This document shows positions 1 to 12,818 of a DNA stretch of 12,818 nt, piece by piece; position 1 is the stretch's first letter; every line of letters starts with the position of its first letter. The DNA comes from Gammaproteobacteria bacterium (lineage in GTDB: Bacteria; Pseudomonadota; Gammaproteobacteria; Beggiatoales; Beggiatoaceae): assembly GCA_003645255.1 (NCBI GenBank), contig QNES01000128.1:1-12818 (forward strand), written 5' to 3'. The notes under the pieces are model-generated. The model worked only from the letters and a program-made list of their open reading frames with translations, did not search any database and was not told the origin of the DNA. A program made the translations under genes and the position numbers.

Positions 1-406
1 CTTCTGGGATTTTGCCACCGCCGGCAAAAAACTCGCTAACTTGCACCTCAACTATGAACAGCAACCAGAATACCCCTTAAAATGGATGGCTCAACCTGAC
101 ATGCCCTTAAACTGGCGCGTCGACAAAATGAAACTCTCCCGCGACAAGCGACAAATCATTTACAACGACTCCCTCACCCTCGGCGGCATTCCACCTGAAG
201 CTTTTGAATACAAACTTGGTAATCGCTCCGCCCTTGATTGGGTTATTGATCAATATCGGATTAAAGTGGATAAACGGAGTGGCATTGTTAATGATCCGAA
301 TCGGTTGGATGATGAAGAATATATTGTGCGCTTAATTGCGAAAGTGGTTTTTGTGAGTTTGGAGACTGTGGGGATTGTGTTGAAATTATCGGATTTGACA
401 CTATAA
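1..406 (+). CDS. C-terminal end (partial; the ORF is open to the window start) of a Type ISP/IIG restriction-modification enzyme or N6-adenine DNA methyltransferase-endonuclease fusion
   Basis: The frame is open from position 2 with no upstream stop. The translated C-terminus is ...LSRDKRQIIYNDSLTLGGIPPEAFEYKLGNRSALDWVIDQYRIKVDKRSGIVNDPNR..DDEEYIVRLIAKVV.VSLETV. This matches the conserved extreme C-terminal motif of single-polypeptide Type IIG/ISP (LlaGI/MmeI-like) enzymes. The 5' portion of the gene lies outside the window. Confidence 0.7.
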   Translation, partial: FWDFATAGKKLANLHLNYEQQPEYPLKWMAQPDMPLNWRVDKMKLSRDKRQIIYNDSLTLGGIPPEAFEYKLGNRSALDWVIDQYRIKVDKRSGIVNDPNRLDDEEYIVRLIAKVVFVSLETVGIVLKLSDLTL

Positions 407-1922: not shown

Positions 1923-2092
1923 TAAAGCAAGCATAGCCAGTGGGTAGGTATTTGCTACGCTAAACTCAAACACAGCCAAGCGATAGATATCAACCCATCA
2001 TTTTTCGGCTAATTATTAATGAACGGTGGGTTTAACTTCGGTAACCTCGTATCGTTCTTCTATAGATATTCATAAAAATAACTTCCAAAAAT

Positions 2093-2117
2093 CTGACAGG
2101 TATTCGAGACCTGTCAG
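2093..2117. terminator. Perfect 9-bp hairpin, probably a bidirectional terminator with its U-tract on the minus strand
   Basis: CTGACAGGT-attcgag-ACCTGTCAG. On the minus strand it is followed by ATTTTTGGAAGTTATTTTTATG. On the plus strand it is followed by GTTTAAAGTG. Confidence 0.35.
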
Positions 2118-2181
2118 GTTTAAAGTGTGAAGTTATTTATCTGAAAAACTATATACACCTAACGAACACCAACCAGCTAAT

Positions 2182-2385: not shown

Positions 2386-2468
2386 AATTTCTGTACTTGA
2401 TGTTCAATTTTTTAAAAATACTATTTTTGCACAAATAGTATTTCTTTAAGCTTTTTAACTTTAAAAAC

Positions 2469-2498
2469 TTGAACATCAAGTTGTATATATGATATACT
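2469..2498 (+). promoter_or_regulatory. Sigma70-like promoter for the TMEM43-family gene, embedded in nested palindromes
   Basis: -35 TTGAAC (2469..2474), an 18-nt spacer, then -10 TATACT (2493..2498). The RBS GGAG at 2537..2540 lies 10 nt before the ATG at 2551. The palindromes GTATATatgATATAC and ACTTGtCAAGT overlap the spacer and -10 region. Confidence 0.35.
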
Positions 2499-2550: not shown

Positions 2551-3297
2551 ATGTTTAATTCATATACCAGCGTAACCCATAAATCATGGGGTGATCGCAT
2601 TAAAGAAAGCTTTATACTTGCTGCATTGGGGCTCTGTTTATTTTTCGTCGCATTTCCAGTGCTGTTTTTGAACGAAGGTCGTTCTGTTTACCAGGTACAA
2701 AAATTGGAATATGGCAAAAGTATCGTGGTTCCAATTAATGCCGATAGTGTAGCAAAAGATAATGAGGGCAAACTGGTTCATACAAGTGGTGAGGCCACAA
2801 CGGATGAAACTTTGACAGATGAGGTGCTTGGGGTTAAAGCTGCCGAAACTATCAAGTTACAGCGCGTGGTAGAAATGTACCAGTGGCAGGAACATGAATC
2901 CTCAGTGACTGAAGAACACTATGGAGGTGATGAAACAACGACAACGACCTATTCCTATTCAGAAGAATGGTCAGATGATCCCATTGACTCCAGCAGTTTT
3001 GACGAGTCCAACGAACATCGCAATCCTGATATGCCAATTCACGGAAAAGAAATTAAGGCTCAACAGGTGACACTGGGTCAGTTTTCCCTATCGGAATACT
3101 TTATTGGGCATATGGACGATTATCAACCTCTGCAAATGCCAGATGAAGAACAGACGCAGGTGTTGGAAAAACTCAGTGCCTTAATGGAAGGTAAAAAAAA
3201 CAAACTTACGGTGACTATTATTACGTCAGTGAAAACCCTGCTGCTCCTCAAATCGGTGATCTACGGATACGATTTAAAGTTGTCCTGCCTGCTATAA
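2551..3297 (+). CDS. TMEM43/DUF1625-family membrane protein, N-terminal part, terminated early by a frameshift in an A8 tract
   Basis: SWGDRIKESFILAALGLCLFFVAFPVLFLNEGRSV has the N-terminal TM segment plus the NEGR motif, and VVEMYQWQEHE follows. Both are hallmarks of the TMEM43/DUF1625 family. The reading frame changes at AAAAAAAA 3193..3200, and the true protein continues in frame 0. Confidence 0.6.
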   Translation: MFNSYTSVTHKSWGDRIKESFILAALGLCLFFVAFPVLFLNEGRSVYQVQKLEYGKSIVVPINADSVAKDNEGKLVHTSGEATTDETLTDEVLGVKAAETIKLQRVVEMYQWQEHESSVTEEHYGGDETTTTTYSYSEEWSDDPIDSSSFDESNEHRNPDMPIHGKEIKAQQVTLGQFSLSEYFIGHMDDYQPLQMPDEEQTQVLEKLSALMEGKKNKLTVTIITSVKTLLLLKSVIYGYDLKLSCLL

Positions 3298-3329: not shown

Positions 3330-4208
3330 TTGGATACCTACACAACTGAACGGGATTTTAGCCTTAAATTTTATGGTTTTTCAATCGTTGACAATAACAT
3401 TCAACTTTTTGAATATGGCAATGTGACAGCCAATAGCATGTTTAAACACGCCAAACAGGCTAATGCACTCATGACCTGGATTTTTCGCCTTATTGGCCTT
3501 ATTATGATGTTTGTTGGCTTACGTATGATATTCGGTGTACTGGAAAAACTTGCAGCGGTCGTACCGTTTTTTGGCAAGATTATTGGATTCTTCAGTTCTT
3601 TGATAGCTTTTGTCATAGCTGCTGTACTTTCCTTAATCACCATTGCAATTGCTTGGTTATTTTTCCGCCCATTGTTAAGTGTCATACTTTTCATGATTGC
3701 AGGTGGACTTTTGTATTTATTAAAATATTTGCGTAAACAACCACAACAAGAGCCAATGATGGTTCCTGGAATGGGAGTACCTCAACCGATGCTAATCCCT
3801 CAGCAAGGTGTTCCACAAGCAATGGTTATGCCTCAAGGCACTCAACCAATGCCTCAAGGCGCTCAAGTTGTCATGGCTCAACCAATGCCTCAAGGCGCTC
3901 AAGTCGTCATGGCTCAACCAATGCCTCAAGGCGCTCAAGTTGTCATGGCTCAACCAATGCCTCAAGGCGCTCAAGTTGTCATGGCTCAACCAATGCCTCA
4001 AGGTGCTCAAGTCGTCATGGCTCAACCAATGCCTCAAGGCGCTCAACCCGTCATGGTTCAACCAATGGTAATGCCTCAAGCCGTTCAACAAACAGGCGTT
4101 CCCCAAAACGTCAATTCGGTCCAACAGTATGGGGTGACAACAGCCGTTACACATCCACAAACTCCACCAATGCTGGTTCCTGAGATGGTAATCCCCCCAA
4201 AGTCATAA
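3330..4208 (+). CDS. TMEM43/DUF1625-family membrane protein, C-terminal part (3 TM helices plus a Pro/Gln/Met-rich tandem-repeat tail)
   Basis: Frame 0 is open from 3195 as KKQTYGDYYYVSENPAAPQIGDLRIRFKVVLPAIISVVAKQ..., so the ORF caller's TTG start at 3330 is an artefact. The three hydrophobic helices (WIFRLIGLIMMFVGL, VVPFFGKIIGFFSSLIAFVIAAVLSLITIAIAWLF, LLSVILFMIAGGLLYLL) match the TMEM43 C-terminal region. The tail carries 6x PMPQGAQVVMAQ. Confidence 0.6.
   Translation: MDTYTTERDFSLKFYGFSIVDNNIQLFEYGNVTANSMFKHAKQANALMTWIFRLIGLIMMFVGLRMIFGVLEKLAAVVPFFGKIIGFFSSLIAFVIAAVLSLITIAIAWLFFRPLLSVILFMIAGGLLYLLKYLRKQPQQEPMMVPGMGVPQPMLIPQQGVPQAMVMPQGTQPMPQGAQVVMAQPMPQGAQVVMAQPMPQGAQVVMAQPMPQGAQVVMAQPMPQGAQVVMAQPMPQGAQPVMVQPMVMPQAVQQTGVPQNVNSVQQYGVTTAVTHPQTPPMLVPEMVIPPKS
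3843..4075 (+). repeat. Tandem 36-bp direct repeat (about 6.5 copies) encoding PMPQGAQVVMAQ
   Basis: The unit caaccaatgcctcaaggcgctcaagttgtcatggct repeats near-perfectly, with only synonymous gtt/gtc and ggc/ggt changes. It creates spurious ORFs on both strands (3808..4071+, 3792..4160-). Confidence 0.9.
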
Positions 4209-7853: not shown

Positions 7854-8363
7854 TTAATCTAACTTTGCCAAAATTTCATCCACTGTATCAGGTGTTAGAT
7901 TTTCATGATATTTTCGCCCAATTTGCATCATTGGAGCCCCCCCACATGCGCCTAAACATTCTACTTCTTTCAAGGTGAATTTTTTATCAGACGTGGTTTC
8001 TCCCAATTTAATGTCCAATTTCTTTTCTAGGTGCTCAACAATTTCTTCAGAACCGCGTAGCATACAAGAAACATTGGTACACATACATAATTTATGTTGC
8101 CCTACCGGTTTAAGTTCATACATAGAATAAAATGTAGCCACTTCATAAACAGCAATAGGTGACATATCTAAATAATCGGCAACGGCATCCATTAACTCTG
8201 TTGTCAACCAACCACCGTTAGCTTCTTGGACAACCGTTAAAGCACCCATCACTGCTGACTGTTTTTGATCCGATGGATATTTAACGAGCCAACGGTCAAT
8301 TTCCGAACGAGTTTCATCCGATAAGATGGCAGAAGCATTGGGTTTAGACATACGTATTGACAT
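7854..8363 (-). CDS. NuoE/HoxE-family thioredoxin-like [2Fe-2S] ferredoxin subunit (24-kDa NADH-dehydrogenase/hydrogenase diaphorase subunit), encoded as a stand-alone gene
   Basis: GQHKLCMCTNVSCMLRGSEEIVEHLEKKL....EVECLGACGGAPMMQIG shows the four-Cys C-x4-C ... C-x3-C pattern and overall NuoE/NqoE/HoxE similarity. No nuoF/nuoD neighbours are present. Confidence 0.75.
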   Translation of the reverse strand: MSIRMSKPNASAILSDETRSEIDRWLVKYPSDQKQSAVMGALTVVQEANGGWLTTELMDAVADYLDMSPIAVYEVATFYSMYELKPVGQHKLCMCTNVSCMLRGSEEIVEHLEKKLDIKLGETTSDKKFTLKEVECLGACGGAPMMQIGRKYHENLTPDTVDEILAKLD

Positions 8364-8566
8364 AATTATTTAATGGTTAATGGTTAATGAACACTATACC
8401 AATATAATGTAAACCATTGATTTATTTAAGCCATTTTTGATAACGCTCATAAAATCAATTATTTAAATTAAATCGGTATAATGTCTAATGATTGATAATT
8501 AGTAGCTACTCAGTTTTGAAATAAAGCTTGAATTGATTTATTTCAAAATTAAAAAATTAATAAAAA

Positions 8567-8713
8567 GAAATACTATTTTGTAACAAATCAGGGCAACCAC
8601 AAGGGATTGCCCCTACGTTTGAATATTTTCTGAACTCGCCAACAAAAAAAATGTTGTAGGGGCAATCCTTTATGATTGCCCTGAGTAGCGATTTTTGAAA
8701 AAAATAGTATTTC
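8567..8713. mobile_element. Small palindromic MITE-like element: 13-bp terminal inverted repeats around two hairpin-forming inverted arms
   Basis: TIR-L GAAATACTATTTT (8567..8579) and TIR-R AAAATAGTATTTC (8701..8713). Internal arm A CAGGGCAAccacAAGGGATTGCCCCTAC (8589..8616) is the reverse complement, apart from a 4-nt centre, of arm B GTAGGGGCAATCCTTTATGATTGCCCTG (8656..8683). Each arm is itself a GGGCAA/TTGCCC hairpin. The same TIR pair occurs back-to-back at 2415..2444. Confidence 0.4.
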
Positions 8714-8889
8714 TAGTACGCTCAGACTAAGTAGTTACAATAATTAATGGTTAATAATTAATGCTCAACGGGGATAGTCCACCATTAATCATTAACTATT
8801 AATCAACCTAAGAATATGCATAAAATAAAATCGACAAGTAAGAACGAAGAATTTTAAAAATTATTTTATGCACGTTCCCTAACACTTGT

Positions 8890-9174
8890 CTAATATCTTC
8901 CCCCACCTCCTCTGGGTTTGCGAGGACGTTCGTCCCTCGGACGAGCCTGATTCACCTTGAGATTTCGATCCTTCATAAGACTTGAATTGAGGACTTTGAT
9001 TGCTTCTTCCGCATCTGCTTGCCTTGTCATTTCAACAAAAGCAAACCCTTTTGATTGCCCTGAATATTTATCGGTTATTATGTTGACAGTAGTGACTTCG
9101 CCATATTCACCAAAAAGTTCTTGCAGTTCATCTTCAGTCACACTATAGGGCAAGTTACCCACATATATATTCAT
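8890..9174 (-). CDS. rbp: Glycine-rich RNA-binding protein with a single RRM domain (Rbp-type)
   Basis: RNP-2 is NIYVGNL and RNP-1 is KGFAFVEM. The tail is RPRDERPRKPRGGGGRY. The canonical bacterial or cyanobacterial Rbp is 90-100 aa. Confidence 0.9.
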   Translation of the reverse strand: MNIYVGNLPYSVTEDELQELFGEYGEVTTVNIITDKYSGQSKGFAFVEMTRQADAEEAIKVLNSSLMKDRNLKVNQARPRDERPRKPRGGGGRY

Positions 9175-9205
9175 CTATATTTTCTCTGTGCTTTGAATCA
9201 AAAAA

Positions 9206-9260
9206 CACTATTGAATAATCAAGCGCACAAATTAAACAATAGTGATTAGCCCATTAATGG
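9206..9260 (-). promoter_or_regulatory. 5' leader and promoter region of rbp, with an inverted repeat and a 10-bp palindrome
   Basis: CACTATTG (9206..9213) pairs with CAATAGTG (9237..9244) across a 23-nt spacer. The palindrome CCATTAATGG lies at 9251..9260, between the yqiK stop and the rbp start. Confidence 0.3.
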
Positions 9261-9280
9261 CTAATTCTGTGTTGTTTCAC

Positions 9281-10684
9281 TCACACCTTCTTTAAGGGAT
9301 CAGGTGAAACATGGTTTTGCAATCCTACCTCATGGGAACTTTCTTTCAGAAATTTTCCAAGTGTATCAGGTAACTCAACACCAGCCATTTTAGCAAATTC
9401 ATGCAAAGGAGGCAATACCTTAGTGATATTAGAAAGCCAATTAGCGGTTGTAGAACGACCGCTATCATTCCCCCCATCCATCACCAAAATCTTATCGAAC
9501 TGAATACCACTGATTGCCTGAGATTGAGCTTCAACAATTTTTGGCATTTGTTCAACGATCATTAACATCGCAGCTTTATCAGGCTCATTCCCCGCTGCGT
9601 TCACGATAGCCTCGAATCCCTTAGCTTTCTTTGCCAATTGCTCATAAATACCTTCTGCGTGACCCAACATTTCAGCCTTAATCGCTTCACCTTTACCTTG
9701 ACCATCTAATGCAAGCTGTGCTTTATTAGCTTCCGCTTCGATGATATATTTTGATTTAGCGATTTCCGCCGGCACGACAACATCTGCTTGCTGAGTCGCA
9801 CGCTCACGTTCTGCACGCGCTATTTCTGCCAGTCGTTCAGCCTTATAACCTTCTTCTTGAGCCGCAGCTACACTTACCGCTTCGGCGGCATCACCCCGAC
9901 GCTTAGCTTCAGCTTCAGCTTCACGACGCTTCGCATTGGAATTAGCCTCAACGACAGTGGCTTCATTTTCACCCGTCACCGCACGGGCATTAGCATTAGC
10001 TACATTGACTCGTTCTTCCTGTTTTGCATTAGATGCCCCGGTTTCACCATCACGGTGTTGCAAAGCGACTTGGACCTTTGCCCGATTGACTGCTTCAGCG
10101 GCAGCTTTTTCACCCAGGGCTTTCAAATAACCTGACTCATCTGTAATGTCAGCAATATTAACATTAATAAGACGCAATCCTATTTTTTTCAACTCCTCCT
10201 CAATATTTTCCATCACATTATGACTAAAGGTATCCCGATCAGCATTGATTTCTTCAATATCCATCGTTGCTATCGTGGCACGCAATTGTCCGAAAATAAT
10301 TTCTTGAGCCATTCCCTCAATGGCTGAAGGAGTCAAACCAAGCAAACGTATTGCTGCATTAGTCATGAGATCTTCAGTCGTACCAATGCCAAATGTAAAC
10401 TTCGAGGGTACATTGACTCGAATGTTTTGCTTTGAAAGCGCAGAGCGTAGAGGTACATCTGTCGTTATAGGTGTCAAATCCAAATAGGAATACTGCTGGA
10501 TAAGGGGCCAAACAAAAGTAGCACCCCCATGAATCGGCAACGCCGATCTACCAACACCCACTTTACCATACTTAACCAATATCCGATTAGAAGGACAAGT
10601 TTTATAGCGACGAATGGCTAACATAAAGGTTCCAAAAACCATCAAGCCAATGACAGTCACTATCATAATAATATAAATTGACAT
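9281..10684 (-). CDS. yqiK: Flotillin-like SPFH/band-7 protein (YqiK/FloT family)
   Basis: It has an N-terminal TM helix, an SPFH domain and a long Ala/Glu-rich coiled-coil (AEAEAKRRGDAAEAVSVAAAQEEGYKAERLAEIARAERERA) followed by a flotillin C-terminus. It lies immediately downstream of an NfeD-like gene. Confidence 0.85.
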   Translation of the reverse strand: MSIYIIMIVTVIGLMVFGTFMLAIRRYKTCPSNRILVKYGKVGVGRSALPIHGGATFVWPLIQQYSYLDLTPITTDVPLRSALSKQNIRVNVPSKFTFGIGTTEDLMTNAAIRLLGLTPSAIEGMAQEIIFGQLRATIATMDIEEINADRDTFSHNVMENIEEELKKIGLRLINVNIADITDESGYLKALGEKAAAEAVNRAKVQVALQHRDGETGASNAKQEERVNVANANARAVTGENEATVVEANSNAKRREAEAEAKRRGDAAEAVSVAAAQEEGYKAERLAEIARAERERATQQADVVVPAEIAKSKYIIEAEANKAQLALDGQGKGEAIKAEMLGHAEGIYEQLAKKAKGFEAIVNAAGNEPDKAAMLMIVEQMPKIVEAQSQAISGIQFDKILVMDGGNDSGRSTTANWLSNITKVLPPLHEFAKMAGVELPDTLGKFLKESSHEVGLQNHVSPDPLKKV

Positions 10685-10707
10685 ATTTTAATCCTATAGT
10701 TGAAATT

Positions 10708-11253
10708 TTAAATTTCCAATGGGTTCACAATCAATTGATTATTGGAAACGCGCACCACTTTCACTGTATGCCCTCTGGTAATTTTTTCACCTTCTGTAAT
10801 AGCTTCAAGCTCTTCAAGTCTGCCCTGAAAAGAAATATTCACTTTACCACAGCCACCGAATTTGCCTGGTATGGAAATGGAAACGATTGCTTCCTTTCCA
10901 ACCGTATTTTCTAAGTCAATATTGCCTGATTCATTTAAGGTAGCAAGCCCTTTAAGCAATAACAAATTTAAAGCTACCATAAACAACCCAATTAAAATTG
11001 CCCAAACAATAGAAATGCCCGCCTCAACGCAAGCCAGCCCTCCCCAGGAAAACCCCAGGAAAAAAACAATCGCATTTCTGAGGGTAAAAAACATGGAAGC
11101 ATCCCCACTTCCATCGTGATCCCCTCCATCTCCATCATCTGCTCCAATAAATAAGGCTACCACCATTTGAAGCATGAATAATAATGTAAAGGGAATAGCT
11201 AACCCCCAAAGAAGCTGCTGAACCCCGGTTAAACTAATCCACCATTCTTGCAT
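10708..11253 (-). CDS. yqiJ: NfeD-like membrane protein (YqiJ family), partner of flotillin
   Basis: Hydrophobic helices, an acidic Gly/Asp loop (GADDGDGGDHDGSGD) and a C-terminal OB-fold-like soluble domain, in the conserved yqiJ-yqiK order. The start is placed at the ATG (MQEWW...) with AGGG 9 nt upstream. The ORF track's GTG at 11280 would overlap the upstream gene. Confidence 0.7.
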   Translation of the reverse strand: MQEWWISLTGVQQLLWGLAIPFTLLFMLQMVVALFIGADDGDGGDHDGSGDASMFFTLRNAIVFFLGFSWGGLACVEAGISIVWAILIGLFMVALNLLLLKGLATLNESGNIDLENTVGKEAIVSISIPGKFGGCGKVNISFQGRLEELEAITEGEKITRGHTVKVVRVSNNQLIVNPLEI

Positions 11254-11263
11254 ATATTTTACC

Positions 11264-11746
11264 CTATAACGATACACCACTATTTTTTAAATCAACCTGA
11301 TTCAACAAAGCCTGATTTGATAAAAAATCTTCCAACTTCTTTGAAAAAACTTTTTCCAATACAGGTGGAATAACCTTTTCTAACTGTTTCTCAATCATAA
11401 GACTAAGTCGTTTTTCCAATTCATCTGATGAAATTTCCACATCCGGCTTAACTTCTATTGTAAAAGTTTCTTTTGCTTCCAAACTTTTTAAAGCTTCTGA
11501 TGCCACATTAGCTGCCTCCAATAATTGATTTTCATCTAAATCGCCTTCGTCACGCAATGTTGGATCTGCACAAAAATCTTCAACTGCCCAAAAAAGGGTA
11601 TTGAGTATTTTATATTCTGTTTCTGAAAAATCAGTGTTGTCATATTCAAATAATTTTAAATACTCAGCTTCAAATTGGAGCGCAGATAACTGTCCTTGCA
11701 TGAAGGAATTGATAAGTGTTCCATACGGATAAATTGTTGATTTCAT
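11264..11746 (-). CDS. Hypothetical protein, possibly a colicin/pyocin-type immunity-like protein
   Basis: MKSTIYPYGTLINSFMQGQLSALQFEAEYLKLFEYDNTDFSETEYKILNTLFWAVEDFCADPTLRDEGDLDENQLLEAANVASEALKSL resembles the colicin-immunity-like family pattern recalled from memory (EE.Y.IL..LF.AVD.F.PDP.LR.EGDIDEE.L). The start ATG overlaps the stop of the upstream gene (ATGA) at 11743..11746. Confidence 0.45.
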   Translation of the reverse strand: MKSTIYPYGTLINSFMQGQLSALQFEAEYLKLFEYDNTDFSETEYKILNTLFWAVEDFCADPTLRDEGDLDENQLLEAANVASEALKSLEAKETFTIEVKPDVEISSDELEKRLSLMIEKQLEKVIPPVLEKVFSKKLEDFLSNQALLNQVDLKNSGVSL

Positions 11747-12105
11747 GTTATATTCCCATCTGATAATAGATGCTTTTCCTGTTTCATGCTCAAATGCCAT
11801 GCCGATAAAAATTGATGGTTTTTGCATAAAACATTGAGTTTGGTTCCTGGATTAAAAAAATGTTTAATCGGTTGTCCTTTATAAGTGCCTTTTATCACTA
11901 CCGTGTTCACATCAATAATATGCTTTAACAATGCTTGTTTAAAAGCAATTAGATTTGACAAATTATAATGACCCTCTACACCAAAAACAAGAGCATGTTT
12001 AAATTTTTTCTGCAATTGTTTATCACTAAAATGGCACCGCCAAATCAGGGGCAATAACCCATTTTTTCTTATCCACTGTAAAGCATTTTGATAAATATTA
12101 TACAT
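11743..12105 (-). CDS. Hypothetical 120-aa protein translationally coupled to the immunity-like gene
   Basis: No recognisable domain. The ORF is clean, and its TGA stop sits inside the downstream gene's ATG. Confidence 0.4.
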   Translation of the reverse strand: MYNIYQNALQWIRKNGLLPLIWRCHFSDKQLQKKFKHALVFGVEGHYNLSNLIAFKQALLKHIIDVNTVVIKGTYKGQPIKHFFNPGTKLNVLCKNHQFLSAWHLSMKQEKHLLSDGNIT

Positions 12106-12140
12106 TTTTAAGTAGGTACAAGTCTTTTAACATTTTTTTT

Positions 12141-12163
12141 CGGAAATAAACCCAGTTTTTTCA
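12141..12163 (-). terminator. Putative terminator downstream of the DUF2442 cassette
   Basis: On the minus strand CCAAGTTTTTT-g-AAAAAACTGGG forms a 10-bp hairpin with one mismatch, followed by TTTATTTCCG. Confidence 0.35.
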
Positions 12164-12188
12164 AAAAACTTGGTTTCTAAACAGAGCA

Positions 12189-12311
12189 TTATAAAACCGC
12201 CTCAACCCGTGCTAACATTTTATCTGTTACTTTAGTACTGCGTTCAATTTTAGCAATATAACCTTTTGAAACACCTAAACGCTATAACGATAAAACTTTT
12301 GTCCTTTTCAA
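12189..12311 (-). pseudogene. Remnant of an XRE-family HTH gene (no start, in-frame TAG)
   Basis: The minus-strand translation IKPLKRTKVLSL*RLGVSKGYIAKIERSTKVTDKMLARVEAVL matches the XRE HTH pattern (IK.LR...GLSQ..LA..LGVS..YIS.IERG.......L..IA.AL). It is interrupted by TAG at 12282..12284. Confidence 0.3.
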
Positions 12312-12321
12312 TGGTTTTATA

Positions 12322-12564
12322 TTATTTTTTTGGACACTTGCTTTCCAAATACAAACTATCAGGGCAAAAATCTTGTCCATTTTGCCATTGAACACTGCCT
12401 AAAAAGGGTTTAACTGAGTTAAATAAACTTATTTCTTTTAATTCTCTAAATATACCTTTATCTAAATAAGGCTTAACATCAAATACTTTAACTTCTCCAT
12501 TGTTAAAAGTAAGGGTTATAGTGTAGTTTAAATTGGGTTTAACATGTTCAACTCTTGGATTCAT
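12322..12564 (-). CDS. DUF2442-family protein (small partner of DUF4160 in two-gene cassettes)
   Basis: VKPNLNYTITLTFNNGEVKVFDVKPYLDKGIFRELKEISLFNSVKPFLGSVQWQNGQDFCPDSLY fits DUF2442 (..L.v.F.dG..r.fD..P.L..G.F..L.d...F..V.v..g.v.W.ngiD..Pd.LY). Its start is 10 nt after the DUF4160-fragment stop. Confidence 0.7.
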   Translation of the reverse strand: MNPRVEHVKPNLNYTITLTFNNGEVKVFDVKPYLDKGIFRELKEISLFNSVKPFLGSVQWQNGQDFCPDSLYLESKCPKK

Positions 12565-12574
12565 AAAAATATCC

Positions 12575-12706
12575 CTATTTCAATGGAGCAATCTTGAAGA
12601 TAGTTTCACCCTGGGTAGCTAATTCCCAATCAGCCATCAATTCTTCTTGGTGTATTTCAATCCATGCCTGAATTAATTTTAGTTTACTGGACTTGAGATA
12701 ACAATT
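12575..12706 (-). pseudogene. DUF4160-family gene, C-terminal fragment only; the upstream part is disrupted by stops or frameshifts
   Basis: ...KLKLIQAWIEIHQEELMADWELATQGETIFKIAPLK* matches the DUF4160 C-terminus (..AL.LV.EW..LH..ELLENWELA..G.PL.KI.PL). An in-frame TGA lies at 12707..12709, and no intact N-terminal MPTI...DHNPPHFH segment is found in any frame up to the window end. Confidence 0.4.
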
Positions 12707-12735
12707 TCATCGACAAATATCTACATGTGGACATA

Positions 12736-12749
12736 AAATGTATACATTT
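12736..12749. promoter_or_regulatory. 14-bp perfect palindrome flanked by TGTGGAC direct repeats; putative operator upstream of the DUF4160/DUF2442 cassette
   Basis: AAATGTA|TACATTT lies at 12736..12749, ACATGTGGACAT at 12723..12734 and CATTGTGGACT at 12753..12763. Confidence 0.3.
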
Positions 12750-12818
12750 CAACATTGTGGACTAGGGAGTATCAACCCTTTATCCCCTCGCTTGCACTTG
12801 GGGTTACTTTTTTTCAAC

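What the first reader, a model, noticed from the sequence alone, without database searches (positions are those of the whole stretch)
8567..8713. Palindromic MITE-like element whose terminal inverted repeats also occur fused back-to-back at 2415..2444
At 8567..8713, the 13-bp TIRs GAAATACTATTTT and AAAATAGTATTTC enclose two ~28-bp arms that are mutual reverse complements and individually hairpin (GGGCAA...TTGCCC). This gives a ~147-bp element that can fold into a long cruciform or stem-loop. At 2415..2444 the same two TIRs sit next to each other separated only by TTGCAC (AAATACTATTTT-tgcac-AAATAGTATTTC), like an empty or collapsed version. That copy is nested inside another 13-bp inverted repeat at 2395..2407 and 2469..2481 that overlaps a promoter.

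On this evidence it is a family of small non-autonomous palindromic elements, or a protein-binding palindrome that attracts insertions. The 8567 copy sits between the 3' end of rbp and the 5' region of the NuoE-like gene. It could act as a terminator and/or a regulatory RNA structure.
Basis: seen in the sequence. Interest (0 to 1): 0.6.

Follow-up and report, generated by a model that had tools for sequence, protein, structure and literature searches.

The report
Nested miniature transposons between rbp and nuoE
The 147-bp palindrome is one small non-coding mobile element inserted into the hairpin loop of another, in the repeat-rich genome of a giant sulfur bacterium: ordinary for such genomes, but a close relative still has the empty hairpin.

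Summary

**The 13-bp "TIRs" are a hairpin stem.** They lie at 8567-8579 and 8701-8713. They form the stem of a small AT-rich hairpin found at 133 or more distinct places in metagenome contigs. One copy is at 2415-2444.

**The inner arms are a separate element.** Each arm is a GTAG-tagged REP-like hairpin (GTAG-GGGCAATC-loop-GATTGCCC). Together they form a 113-bp doublet at 8580-8692. It belongs to a MITE family bounded by GTAACTACTCAG...CTGAGTAGTTAC. Intact members carry 8-bp target-site duplications (12 of 21 pairs, against 0 of 83 controls).

**A close relative shows the insertion directly.** In a relative with 93% identical NuoE and the same gene order, the hairpin is intact and the window's extra 120 nt (8579-8698) are missing.

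**The hairpin sits inside a third, outer MITE.** It spans 8502-8738, has the same kind of TIR, and is flanked by the duplication GATAATTA/AATAATTA.

**The 2415-2444 copy lies in yet another MITE.** That one spans 2395-2481, with 13-bp TIRs and a 3-bp duplication.

**The REP core 26-mer is nearly invariant in hits from many phyla.** It also appears, undescribed, in published Thiomargarita repeat consensus sequences.

No RAYT or parent IS was found. Verdict: a new member of known kinds (MITE/REP). Interest is modest.

The parts
8494..8501 (.). Target-site duplication, left copy (GATAATTA), of the outer MITE
   Evidence: It matches AATAATTA at 8739-8746 in 7 of 8 positions. The same 8-bp flank test gave at least 7 of 8 in 12 of 21 TIR pairs of this family and in 0 of 83 shifted controls.
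8502..8513 (+). Terminal inverted repeat GTAGCTACTCAG of the outer MITE (8502-8738)
   Evidence: It has 1 mismatch to the family TIR GTAACTACTCAG, found 66 times in the fetched loci. It is present at the same place in the ortholog L261.
8514..8548 (.). Second AT-rich hairpin inside the outer MITE (TTTTGAAATAAA-11 nt-TTTATTTCAAAA)
   Evidence: Direct reading, part of I9, and paired in the fold. In L261 this hairpin carries a different nested palindromic insert of about 125 nt.
8567..8579 (+).
   Evidence: The family has 134 copies in 133 contexts. Lineage variants keep the pairing: ACT:AGT, CCT:AGG and CCG:CGG, plus one ACC:GGT copy.
8580..8692 (.). Nested REP-doublet MITE. It consists of a degenerate TIR GTAACAAATCAG, REP unit 1, a 39-nt spacer, REP unit 2 and a degenerate TIR CTGAGTAGCGAT.
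   Evidence: It has the same architecture as the 111-121-bp elements L243 1548-1658, L225 1338-1448, L196 4491-4611 and L198 6192-6303, which have perfect 8-bp TSDs. It lies within the 120 nt (8579-8698) that are absent from the orthologous hairpin of L261/L262.
8588..8616 (-). REP unit 1. On the - strand it reads GTAG-GGGCAATC-CCTTGT-GGTTGCCC-TGA (loop type CACAAGG on the + strand).
   Evidence: (I2). The core 26-mer was almost invariant in the 197 hits in 122 sequences.
8656..8684 (+). REP unit 2. It reads GTAG-GGGCAATC-CTTTAT-GATTGCCC-TGA (loop type CATAAAG). With unit 1 it forms a tail-to-tail heterodimer with the GTAG tags facing inward.
   Evidence: TT heterodimers of these two loop types are the commonest arrangement, 22 of 44 TT pairs.
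8701..8713 (+).
8727..8738 (+). Terminal inverted repeat CTAAGTAGTTAC of the outer MITE
8739..8746 (.). Target-site duplication, right copy (AATAATTA)
2395..2481 (.). A separate 87-bp MITE. TIRs ACTTGATGTTCAA and TTGAACATCAAGT lie at 2395-2407 and 2469-2481. The intact small hairpin lies at 2415-2444. The 3-bp duplication TGT lies at 2392-2394 and 2482-2484.
   Evidence: (I1). Other members carry the same internal hairpin: L127, L187, L206 and L221. L127 (ATA) and L206 (TTT) show 3-bp direct repeats; the flanks of L187 and L221 are unclear.
8807..8877 (.). A further 71-nt palindromic element of the GGAACGTGCAT... family. It starts 13 nt after the rbp stop codon and is bounded by a TTAGG direct repeat.
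   Evidence: It is absent from the ortholog L261/L262. Longer relatives occur in L200 and L218.

Best explanation
The region is a nest of non-autonomous mobile elements, not a single MITE.

**Order of events.**
1. A 12-bp-TIR MITE (now 8502-8738) inserted into the rbp-nuoE spacer and duplicated 8 bp. This happened before the window's lineage split from its closest sampled relative. The MITE carries a small AT-rich hairpin module, GAAATACTATTT-loop-AAATAGTATTTC.
2. Later, in the window's lineage only, a second MITE of the same TIR superfamily landed in the loop of that hairpin (8580-8692). Its long arms are GTAG-tagged REP-like hairpins.
3. Its ends have since decayed.

**How it moves (inferred).** Intact members of this MITE family make 8-bp target duplications. 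I therefore infer movement in trans by a DDE transposase. The GTAA termini and the 8-bp duplication are the hallmark of IS66-family elements, but that is only a lead.

**Effect on the host (inferred).** The elements are most likely selfish. As a by-product they put a very stable stem-loop, followed by a U-rich stretch, on the rbp/nuoE coding strand. This could terminate or stabilise the rbp transcript.

**Shown versus inferred.** Shown here: the nesting, the family membership, the duplications and the empty site. Inferred: the enzyme and any effect on transcripts.
For: 1. **Independent hairpin family.** At least 120 contigs hold it, with 134 copies in 133 contexts. Only 9 copies lie near a GTAACTACTCAG TIR, 10 near an ACTTGATGTTCAA TIR, and 92 near neither. 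Both arms change together between lineages: 15 of 19 arm pairs are complementary, against 1 in 64 expected for unrelated triplets.
2. **REP-doublet elements have their own ends and other flanks.** This holds in related genomes. REP cores occur in 17 of the 120 hairpin-bearing contigs, and none is flanked by the 13-mer.
3. **Target-site duplications.** 12 of 21 GTAACTACTCAG...CTGAGTAGTTAC pairs have 8-bp flanks identical at 7 or more positions, 7 of them perfect. None of 83 shifted controls reaches that. The window pair 8502/8738 scores 7 of 8.
4. **Empty site.** L261 and L262 have 93% identical NuoE and the same colicin-NfeD-Band7-rbp-nuoE order. They carry the outer MITE with the uninterrupted hairpin AAATACTATTTTTTAAATAGTATTT. 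The window has exactly 120 extra nt there.
5. **Other inserts in the same hairpin.** Copies L022 3854-4005, L124 1771-1892 and L210 4793-5000 carry unrelated palindromic inserts between their stems.
6. **Literature on the ends.** IS66 terminal repeats start with GTAAGCG or GTAACCG and make 8-bp direct repeats (PMC11946415 and PMC12888890).
7. **Fold.** The whole 253-nt unit folds at -86 kcal/mol, z = -10.4, with TIRs, hairpin stem and REP arms all paired.
Against: - The nested element has no clean duplication. Its flanks are ACTATTTT and TTTTGAAA. A duplication can be recovered only by assuming a 5-nt deletion and one substitution (6 of 8 matches). The empty allele in L261 could therefore be an excision or deletion product rather than the ancestral state.
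- No autonomous element with these TIRs, and no IS66-type transposase, was found in about 1.5 Mb of fetched loci.
- The IS66 link rests on 4 shared terminal bases and the duplication length.
- REP doublets without the 12-bp TIR show no duplication at any offset from 0 to 20. The REP core may therefore spread by a different route.
- There are no expression data, so any terminator or stabiliser role is conjecture.
Confidence: 0.75

Rival explanations
1. REPIN/RAYT system. The two inverted GTAG hairpins are a REP doublet (REPIN) copied by a REP-associated tyrosine transposase through single-stranded DNA. The hairpin loop was the single-stranded target.
For: - Each arm has the defining REP anatomy: a GTAG tag plus a short imperfect palindrome (definitions in PMC3733652).
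- Inverted dimers dominate: 44 TT, 11 HH and 16 HT.
- Stem variants with the same GTAGGGG...CTTGTG...CCC frame show compensatory changes.
- Doublets without the 12-bp TIR have no target duplication, as expected for Y1 transposition.
- A Roseiflexus RAYT (rca_2775) starts with two REP-encoded peptides, GRPQGVAPT. These back-translate to the same superfamily.
- REP dimers nested in palindromes are described for Anabaena variabilis.
Against: - The members closest to the window's copy have 12-bp TIRs and 8-bp duplications. Y1 enzymes do not make these.
- No RAYT lies next to any of the roughly 200 REP cores in 118 loci, except one unrelated Y1 gene 808 nt away in L119.
- The Y1 genes most similar to the only Beggiatoaceae-like fragment found (L225) are flanked by a different inverted repeat, AATCAATGGGGTCAGACTCGATTGATT.
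Confidence: 0.2
2. One reading: one 147-bp MITE whose 13-bp ends (8567-8579 and 8701-8713) are its TIRs, with 2415-2444 as a collapsed copy.
For: The 13-mers are exact inverted repeats that recur at 2415-2444.
Against: - No second copy of the composite was seen among 134 hairpin copies or about 235 REP cores.
- The ortholog has the 13-mers joined by a 3-nt loop without the inner arms.
- The inner arms have their own ends elsewhere.
- No direct repeat flanks 8567-8713, whereas one flanks 8502-8738.
Confidence: 0.03
3. A host-selected RNA element. The structure exists because it terminates or stabilises the rbp transcript, or regulates nuoE. Its repetition reflects a shared functional module.
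For: - On the coding (-) strand the closing stem is followed by CUUUUUAUUAAUUUUUU.
- The reconstructed uninterrupted hairpin folds at -14.5 kcal/mol, z = -4.2.
- The consensus scan calls REP unit 1 terminator-like on the - strand.
- REPs in other bacteria lie mostly downstream of genes and are thought to act as RNA elements (PMC3733652 abstract).
Against: - The close relative lacks the 120-nt insert and carries a different insert nearby, so the large structure is not conserved.
- Most copies of the small hairpin are not followed by a T run.
- No Rfam family matches. Only generic long-hairpin miRNA models scored, far below threshold.
- Target duplications indicate transposition.
Confidence: 0.1
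4. The 13-bp palindrome is an operator bound by a dimeric DNA-binding protein, and the two sites belong to one regulon.
For: It is a perfect palindromic half-site pair. The copy at 2415-2444 lies upstream of a gene.
Against: - The half-site spacing varies from 2 to 12 nt among copies.
- There are more than a hundred copies in unrelated contexts, many inside MITEs.
- Lineage variants change both arms together, which fits pairing of the arms better than recognition of a fixed half-site.
Confidence: 0.03

Closest known systems
GTAG-tagged REP elements and their dimers (REP/BIME; REPINs), as catalogued by Di Nocera et al. 2013 (PMC3733652) and Bertels & Rainey 2011 (PMC3116915)
   Same: - A short imperfect palindrome tagged by GTAG.
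- It occurs as singletons, inverted dimers and clusters. The tail-to-tail dimer with the GTAG tags inside, made of two units with different loops (a heterodimer), is a described class.
- The dimer can fold as one long hairpin.
- It is intergenic, often just downstream of genes.
- Dimers nested inside other palindromes are described.
   Different: - No RAYT was found beside it.
- The window's subfamily has extra 12-bp TIRs and 8-bp target duplications, which REPs and REPINs lack.
- The same 26-mer recurs almost unchanged in hits from many phyla, whereas REPIN-RAYT systems are described as mostly vertically inherited within lineages (RAREFAN preprint abstract).
- That invariance is partly forced by the search, because the pattern fixed 20 of the 26 positions.
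MITEs of Candidatus Thiomargarita nelsonii (Flood et al. 2016, PMC4853749): the hupL MITE family and the RepeatModeler consensus rnd-3_family-176
   Same: - The same bacterial family (Beggiatoaceae).
- Their supplementary sequences contain the identical REP core GGGCAACCACAAGGGATTGCCCCTAC.
- They also contain a tail-to-tail doublet of it.
- Their genomes likewise hold many palindromic repeats nested in one another.
   Different: - The paper describes the hupL MITE as having 10-bp direct repeats and 19-bp inverted repeats.
- It does not single out the GTAG hairpin, the GTAACTACTCAG TIR or the AT-rich hairpin module.
- The window's elements have different ends and different duplication lengths.
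IS66-family insertion sequences, as a possible parent
   Same: Termini begin with GTAA, and insertion duplicates 8 bp (PMC11946415 and PMC12888890).
   Different: - Only the first 4-5 bases of the TIR agree (GTAAC TACTCAG against GTAAGCG or GTAACCG).
- No IS66 transposase gene with these ends was found.
- The link is a lead, not a demonstrated relationship.
Nested small repeats in other repeat-rich bacteria: Anabaena variabilis GTAG-15 dimers inside long palindromes, and Neisseria mosaic intergenic regions (described in PMC3733652)
   Same: - Several unrelated small palindromic families pile into the same intergenic spacers.
- They insert into one another.
   Different: - Different sequences and a different host.
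- Here an orthologous empty site documents one nesting event directly.

Membership tests
MITE (miniature inverted-repeat transposable element) | Terminal inverted repeats shared by many dispersed copies | tested here: met
   GTAACTACTCAG / CTGAGTAGTTAC was found 66 times with at most 1 mismatch in the fetched loci. It bounds 75-280-bp units. The window copies are at 8502-8513 and 8727-8738 (1 mismatch each) and at 8580-8591 and 8681-8692 (2-3 mismatches).
MITE (miniature inverted-repeat transposable element) | Target-site duplication of fixed length flanking the element | tested here: met
   For the family and the outer window element, 12 of 21 pairs match at 7 or more of 8 positions, 7 perfectly, against 0 of 83 controls. 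The window pair 8494-8501 / 8739-8746 scores 7 of 8. For the nested element 8580-8692 the test is not met as the sequence stands (2 of 8), or reaches 6 of 8 if a 5-nt terminal deletion is assumed.
MITE (miniature inverted-repeat transposable element) | Small size and no coding capacity | tested here: met
   The elements are 113 and 237 bp. No ORF of 60 aa or more lies in 8364-8889.
MITE (miniature inverted-repeat transposable element) | Presence/absence polymorphism at orthologous sites | tested here: met
   120 nt (8579-8698) and 71 nt (8807-8877) are present in the window and absent from L261/L262. Three near-identical strains (over 99.9%) all carry them.
MITE (miniature inverted-repeat transposable element) | A related autonomous element that supplies the transposase | tested here: not met
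   No TIR pair 330-6000 bp apart with a duplication was found. No transposase ORF lies behind solitary TIRs in about 1.5 Mb.
REP / REPIN-RAYT system | A 20-40-nt imperfect palindrome with a GTAG tag at one end | tested here: met
   The unit reads GTAG-GGGCAATC-6 nt-G(A/G)TTGCCC. The TAC/GTA tail was present in nearly all hits although it was not part of the search pattern.
REP / REPIN-RAYT system | High copy number, mostly intergenic, often as inverted doublets | tested here: met
There are 218 cores, forming 44 TT, 11 HH and 16 HT pairs. Neighbouring genes are unrelated housekeeping genes. Copy number in the window's own genome was not measured.
REP / REPIN-RAYT system | A cognate RAYT (Y1 transposase, PF01797) flanked by the same REPs (a REPtron) | tested here: inconclusive
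   - None was found next to the REPs in 118 loci.
- Y1 genes of Beggiatoaceae-like contigs are flanked by a different repeat.
- The peptide GRPQGVAPT at the start of Roseiflexus rca_2775 hints at an association for a sister variant.
REP / REPIN-RAYT system | No target-site duplication on insertion | tested here: not met
   The subfamily to which the window's copy belongs has 8-bp duplications. Doublets without the 12-bp TIR have none.
IS66-family-derived MITE | Termini starting with GTAA and 8-bp direct repeats | tested here: met
   for the elements. for the family definition as given in PMC12888890 and PMC11946415.
IS66-family-derived MITE | TIR similarity to a known IS66 member beyond GTAA, or a co-resident IS66 transposase with these ends | not tested
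   ISfinder is not available here, and no such gene was seen in the fetched loci.
Intrinsic (Rho-independent) terminator | A stable hairpin immediately followed by a U tract on the transcribed strand, with 3' ends mapping there | not testable with these tools
   The sequence is compatible on the - strand, where the stem is followed by CUUUUUAUUAAUUUUUU. The closing stem is AU-rich, and no transcript data are available.

The most novel reading that the evidence does not exclude
The GTAG hairpin GTAGGGGCAATCC(C/T)TT(G/A)TGGTTGCCC is a horizontally spreading REP module. Nearly the same 26-mer was found in genomes labelled as:

- Beggiatoaceae
- Methylococcales
- Leptolyngbyaceae cyanobacteria
- cultured Bacteroidota (Rufibacter, Dysgonomonas, Arcicella)
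- Chloroflexi and Dehalococcoidia
- Desulfobacterales
- Campylobacterota
- Chlorobi
- Syntrophomonadaceae
- 14 stretches of viral contigs

If one enzyme clade, or one conserved host process, recognises this exact hairpin across phyla, it would be a promiscuous REP system. That would contrast with the mostly vertical, lineage-bound REPIN-RAYT systems described so far. Its capture as the long arms of a DDE-type MITE would link the two kinds of small mobile DNA.
Probability: 0.2. Interest if true: 0.6.

Novelty: new member of a known kind. Interest (0 to 1): 0.35.

Why it matters
**For annotation.** The rbp-nuoE spacer of this Beggiatoaceae genome is a mosaic of at least four small mobile repeats, so the region should not be read as a single regulatory element. 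The metagenome contig L002 ends at window position 8750, just past this mosaic. The NCBI contig ends inside a different repeat, the 36-nt tandem array near 3922.

**For mobile-DNA biology.**
- The locus gives a clean, dated example of one MITE landing in the hairpin loop of another, with the empty site preserved in a relative.
- It defines a 12-bp TIR (GTAACTACTCAG) with 8-bp duplications, shared by elements with different cargos.
- It flags a GTAG hairpin whose sequence is nearly fixed across distant phyla.

**If the insert affects transcripts.** Strains with and without the insert would be a natural experiment on rbp and nuoE expression.

Tried and rejected
1. **Rfam.** There was no hit at gathering thresholds. 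At permissive thresholds only generic long-hairpin miRNA models scored, far below their cut-offs. The element is not a known RNA family.
2. **Plasmid collection.** A blastn search with the 161-nt unit found no match.
3. **Literature string searches.** No relevant paper contains the REP core or its translations. Hits to shorter strings were primers.
4. **Recurrent neighbouring protein.** All-against-all BLAST of 260 ORFs within 600 nt of REP cores found only unrelated housekeeping families.
5. **RAYT hunt.**
   - Regex and phmmer over all six-frame ORFs found one unrelated Y1 gene (L119) and one pseudogene fragment (L225).
   - The closest full-length homologs, P0001, P0004 and P0007, are flanked by a different GGGGTCAGAC-containing repeat.
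6. **IS605 TnpB gene next to the window (L001 4203-5615).** Its ends are ATCTACAT...ATGTAGAT hairpins, unrelated to the REP.
7. **Do REP doublets in general sit inside palindromes?** Flank complementarity was 7.7, against 7.5 in controls. This was rejected as a general rule; only a few cases fit.
8. **TSD for doublets without the 12-bp TIR.** None was found at offsets 0-20.
9. **Autonomous element with GTAACTACTCAG ends.** None was found.
10. **CRISPR array.** I considered this because of regular spacing in L017, L051 and L083. I rejected it because the units alternate in orientation and the spacers are 6-45 nt.
11. **Similarity of the REP arm to the RNP1-coding part of rbp (9041-9070).** I judged it probably coincidental and did not pursue it.
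Full report
**1.

- GAAATACTATTTT (8567-8579) and AAAATAGTATTTC (8701-8713) are exact inverted repeats.
- The arms 8588-8616 and 8656-8684 are 29 nt long and 90% complementary (I2). Each also folds alone into a 9-pair hairpin.
- The unit folds at -62 kcal/mol (+ strand) and -66 kcal/mol (- strand), with z near -10.
- 2415-2444 is a near-perfect 30-bp palindrome built from the same 11-13-mer. It is enclosed by exact 13-bp inverted repeats at 2395-2407 and 2469-2481.
- The 13-mer occurs four times with at most 1 mismatch, against 0.07 expected.

**2. Setting**

- Both flanking genes are on the minus strand. One is an RRM-type RNA-binding protein (8890-9174). The other is a 2Fe-2S thioredoxin-like protein (7854-8363).
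- Homologs of the second gene are named NuoE by their sources. The closest named ones come from Parabeggiatoa, Beggiatoa sp. PS, Thiomargarita and Thioploca.
- The window matches an NCBI MAG contig (GCA_029935875.1) and two JGI metagenome contigs at over 99.9% identity.
- The host is therefore a member of the Beggiatoaceae, the giant sulfur bacteria. Their genomes are known to be full of MITEs, introns and palindromic repeats (PMC4853749).

**3. The inner arms are GTAG-tagged REP-like hairpins**

- Read on the appropriate strand, each arm is GTAG-GGGCAATC-(6 nt)-G(A/G)TTGCCC-TGA.
- In the 197 hits in 122 sequences, the free positions take essentially two states, CACAAGG and CATAAAG. A TAC tail that was not in the pattern is almost always present. 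The pattern itself fixed 20 positions, so part of this invariance is built into the search.
- The hosts include many Beggiatoaceae. They also include Methylococcales, Leptolyngbyaceae cyanobacteria, cultured Bacteroidota (three Rufibacter species, Dysgonomonas, Arcicella), Chloroflexi, Desulfobacterales, Campylobacterota, Chlorobi and others. There are also 14 viral-contig stretches.
- Related variants keep GTAGGGG...CTTGTG...CCC and change both sides of the stem. Examples are GGGTAGG/CCTACCC in cyanobacteria, GGGCGAT/CTCGCCC in Chloroflexi, and GGGCGAAC/GTTCGCCC just after nuoD in the same genome.
- This is the anatomy of GTAG REPs as defined by Di Nocera et al. (PMC3733652). In their terms the window's pair is a tail-to-tail heterodimer.
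- That is the commonest arrangement in my sample: 44 TT, 11 HH and 16 HT pairs, with 22 TT pairs combining the two loop types.

**4. The window's doublet belongs to a MITE subfamily with its own ends**

- In a gammaproteobacterial MAG (CSMAG_1672), in Thiotrichaceae MAGs and in many metagenome contigs, the doublet is bounded by GTAAC(T/G)ACTCAG...CTGAGT(A/C)GTTAC. The centre resembles ...AGAATATT....
- The window reads GTAACAAATCAG at 8580-8591 and CTGAGTAGCGAT at 8681-8692. These are degenerate versions of the same ends.
- The same 12-bp TIR bounds elements with quite different interiors.
- I tested 8-bp flanks of every TIR pair 50-330 bp apart. 12 of 21 pairs are identical at 7 or more positions and 7 are perfect (for example GTTTTTAT, TATTTCTT, CAATATTA, ATTCTTTA). 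None of 83 shifted control comparisons reaches 7.
- These are therefore true MITEs with 8-bp target-site duplications.

**5.

- Relatives of the doublet are never flanked by the 13-mer.
  - 23 copies belong to an unrelated repeat.
  - 9 lie near a GTAACTACTCAG TIR.
  - 10 lie near an ACTTGATGTTCAA TIR.
  - 92 lie near neither.
- In loci chosen without regard to this hairpin, other lineages carry AAATCCTATTT/AAATAGGATTT or AAATCCGATTT/AAATCGGATTT. 15 of 19 such arm pairs are complementary. One ACC:GGT copy was also seen.
- The half-site spacing varies from 2 to 12 nt. That argues against a dimeric-protein operator and for a hairpin.

**6. The real outer element**

- On the minus strand the hairpin is preceded by GTAACTACTTAG-TCTGAGCGTACTAG. 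Further on it is followed by CTGAGTAGCTAC.
- This is the layout of the 75-77-bp small-hairpin MITEs L236 658-734 and L133 5652-5726.
- In window coordinates the TIRs are 8502-8513 and 8727-8738. The flanks GATAATTA (8494-8501) and AATAATTA (8739-8746) agree at 7 of 8 positions.
- The 253-nt stretch folds at -86 kcal/mol, z = -10.4, with TIRs, hairpin stem and REP arms all paired.

**7. The empty site**

- Contigs L261 and L262 encode a NuoE that is 93% identical. They keep the order colicin D, immunity protein, NfeD, Band 7, rbp, nuoE.
- Their rbp-nuoE spacer aligns with the window's.
- They contain the outer MITE, but the hairpin reads AAATACTATTTTTTAAATAGTATTT without interruption.
- From the anchors on either side, the window has exactly 120 extra nucleotides, 8579-8698.
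- The relatives also lack a 71-nt palindromic element at 8807-8877, which is bounded by a TTAGG direct repeat.
- They carry instead their own insert of about 125 nt in the second AT hairpin of the MITE.
- The outer MITE therefore predates the split, and the nested elements are lineage-specific.
- Other copies of the small hairpin hold unrelated palindromic inserts between their stems: L022 3854-4005, L124 1771-1892 and L210 4793-5000.

**8. The copy at 2415-2444**

- It sits in an 87-bp element with TIRs ACTTGATGTTCAA and TTGAACATCAAGT, flanked by TGT on both sides.
- Four longer members of this TIR family also carry the hairpin. L127 (ATA) and L206 (TTT) show 3-bp direct repeats. The flanks of L187 and L221 are unclear.
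- The same hairpin module thus rides in at least two MITE families with different ends and different duplication lengths.

**9. Mechanism**

- Shown here: the nesting, the TIRs, the duplications and the presence/absence polymorphism.
- Inferred: mobilisation in trans by a DDE transposase, because of the 8-bp duplications.
- GTAA termini with 8-bp direct repeats are the stated hallmark of the IS66 family (PMC11946415 and PMC12888890). I found no autonomous element with these ends in about 1.5 Mb of fetched sequence, so this remains a lead.
- The nested copy has no clean duplication. Its flanks are ACTATTTT and TTTTGAAA. A 5-nt deletion of the right terminus plus one substitution would restore 6 of 8 matches. 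The L261 allele could therefore also be an excision or deletion product.

**10. The RAYT alternative**

- The REP anatomy invites a REPIN/RAYT reading.
- Doublets without the 12-bp TIR show no duplication at any offset.
- A Roseiflexus RAYT in the Di Nocera alignment begins with two REP-encoded peptides of a sister variant.
- However, no Y1 gene lies beside the REP cores sampled.
- The Y1 genes most similar to the one fragment found in a Beggiatoaceae-like contig are flanked by a different repeat, AATCAATGGGGTCAGACTCGATTGATT.
- I therefore rate RAYT mobilisation of the window's element as the main rival, not the best explanation.
- It may still explain how the bare hairpin spreads.

**11. Possible effect on the host**

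- On the coding strand the composite is a long stem-loop followed by CUUUUUAUUAAUUUUUU.
- The uninterrupted hairpin alone would fold at -14.5 kcal/mol.
- A terminator or mRNA-stabilising effect on rbp is plausible but untested.
- The large structure is not conserved in the closest relative.
- A promoter-like site for nuoE (8487-8458, minus strand) lies outside the MITE.

**12. Novelty**

- The REP core and a doublet of it are already present in the supplementary repeat consensus rnd-3_family-176 (family size 49) and in the hupL-MITE sequence of Thiomargarita nelsonii (PMC4853749). They are not described there.
- No paper in the searchable library contains the sequence in its text.
- REP dimers nested in palindromes are a described phenomenon.
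- The finding is therefore a new, well-resolved member of known kinds.
- The most unusual aspect is the near-identity of the 26-mer across distant phyla. I could not explain it.

Noticed in passing
window 9041-9070 (inside rbp, - strand): The RNP1-coding part of rbp (...GGGCAATCAAAAGGGTTTGC..., encoding GQSKGFA) is 80-85% similar to the REP arm (D14, I3). In principle it could pair with the distal arm in the rbp transcript. It is probably coincidence, with a post-hoc chance of about 0.02-0.05 by my rough estimate.
   Followed up: partly
window 8807-8877: A 71-nt palindromic element (GGAACGTGCATAAAATAA...TTATTTTATGCATATTC) starts 13 nt after the rbp stop codon. It is bounded by a TTAGG direct repeat and is absent from the ortholog L261/L262. 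Longer relatives are in L200 12143-12343 and L218.
   Followed up: partly
window 8365-8392, 8741-8800, 9234-9277: There are runs of TTAATGG / TTAACCA-like short repeats just upstream of nuoE and around the MITE (D12, D17, I12). Similar 'attaatggttaatg' runs flank MITE ends in L123, L207 and L215. They recall the TAACTGA intergenic repeats reported for marine Beggiatoaceae (PMC4679880) but have a different sequence.
   Followed up: no
window 2061-2153: This is another palindromic element. It has 25-nt arms that are 84% complementary (I4). They enclose AATCTGACAGGTA...GACCTGTCAGGTT, the AACCTGACAGGTT family that is nested in the L261 copy of the outer MITE and occurs in L195.
   Followed up: no
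window 12146-12180 and 11332-11351: A small AT-rich hairpin, AAACCCAGTTTTTTCAAAAAACTTGGTTT, built like the GAAAT..ATTTT hairpin family. A partial complement lies at 11332-11351 (I16).
   Followed up: no
window 199-388 and 2175-2364: A 190-nt direct duplication at 87% identity (D2). The 3' end of ORF 41-406 is repeated just upstream of the 2395-2481 MITE. L002 calls a 47-aa gene there.
   Followed up: no
window 3805-4092 and ORFs 2551-3297 / 3330-4208: Six tandem 36-nt units lie inside a TMEM43-like gene (D1). The gene is split into 248-aa and 292-aa ORFs in the window and in L003, but is called as one 552-aa gene in L002. The NCBI contig ends inside this array, at window position 3922.
   Followed up: no
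L001 3800-3840, just beyond the window end, after nuoD: A second GTAG REP variant, GGGCGAACACTTATGTTCGCCCCTAC, occurs in the same genome. Next to it an IS605-type TnpB element, with ATCTACAT...ATGTAGAT end hairpins, interrupts a DUF4160 gene.
   Followed up: partly
window 7854-12818 with L001 and L261: The nuo genes are scattered. nuoC and nuoD are separated from nuoE by a block of colicin D, immunity protein, NfeD, Band 7 and rbp genes. nuoE is not followed by nuoF.
   Followed up: no
L242 5880-5960 and 6710-6740; L243, L245, L225: Y1 transposase genes (PF01797) of Beggiatoaceae-like contigs are flanked by the inverted hairpin repeat AATCAATGGGGTCAGACTCGATTGATT. It contains the GGGGWSAS motif that Di Nocera et al. 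describe for TIR-associated Y1 transposases.
   Followed up: partly
L051 2534-2859 (Ca. Thiomargarita nelsonii): Four tandem copies of an 87-bp unit, each holding a tail-to-tail REP heterodimer. This shows local amplification of whole doublets.
   Followed up: no
L246-L259 (IMG/VR contigs): The REP core occurs in 14 stretches of contigs classified as viral. Three of them (L247, L249, L254) have inverted pairs 41 nt apart, start to start, with the GTAG tags facing outward (HH-type). I did not check whether these are prophages of the same hosts.
   Followed up: no
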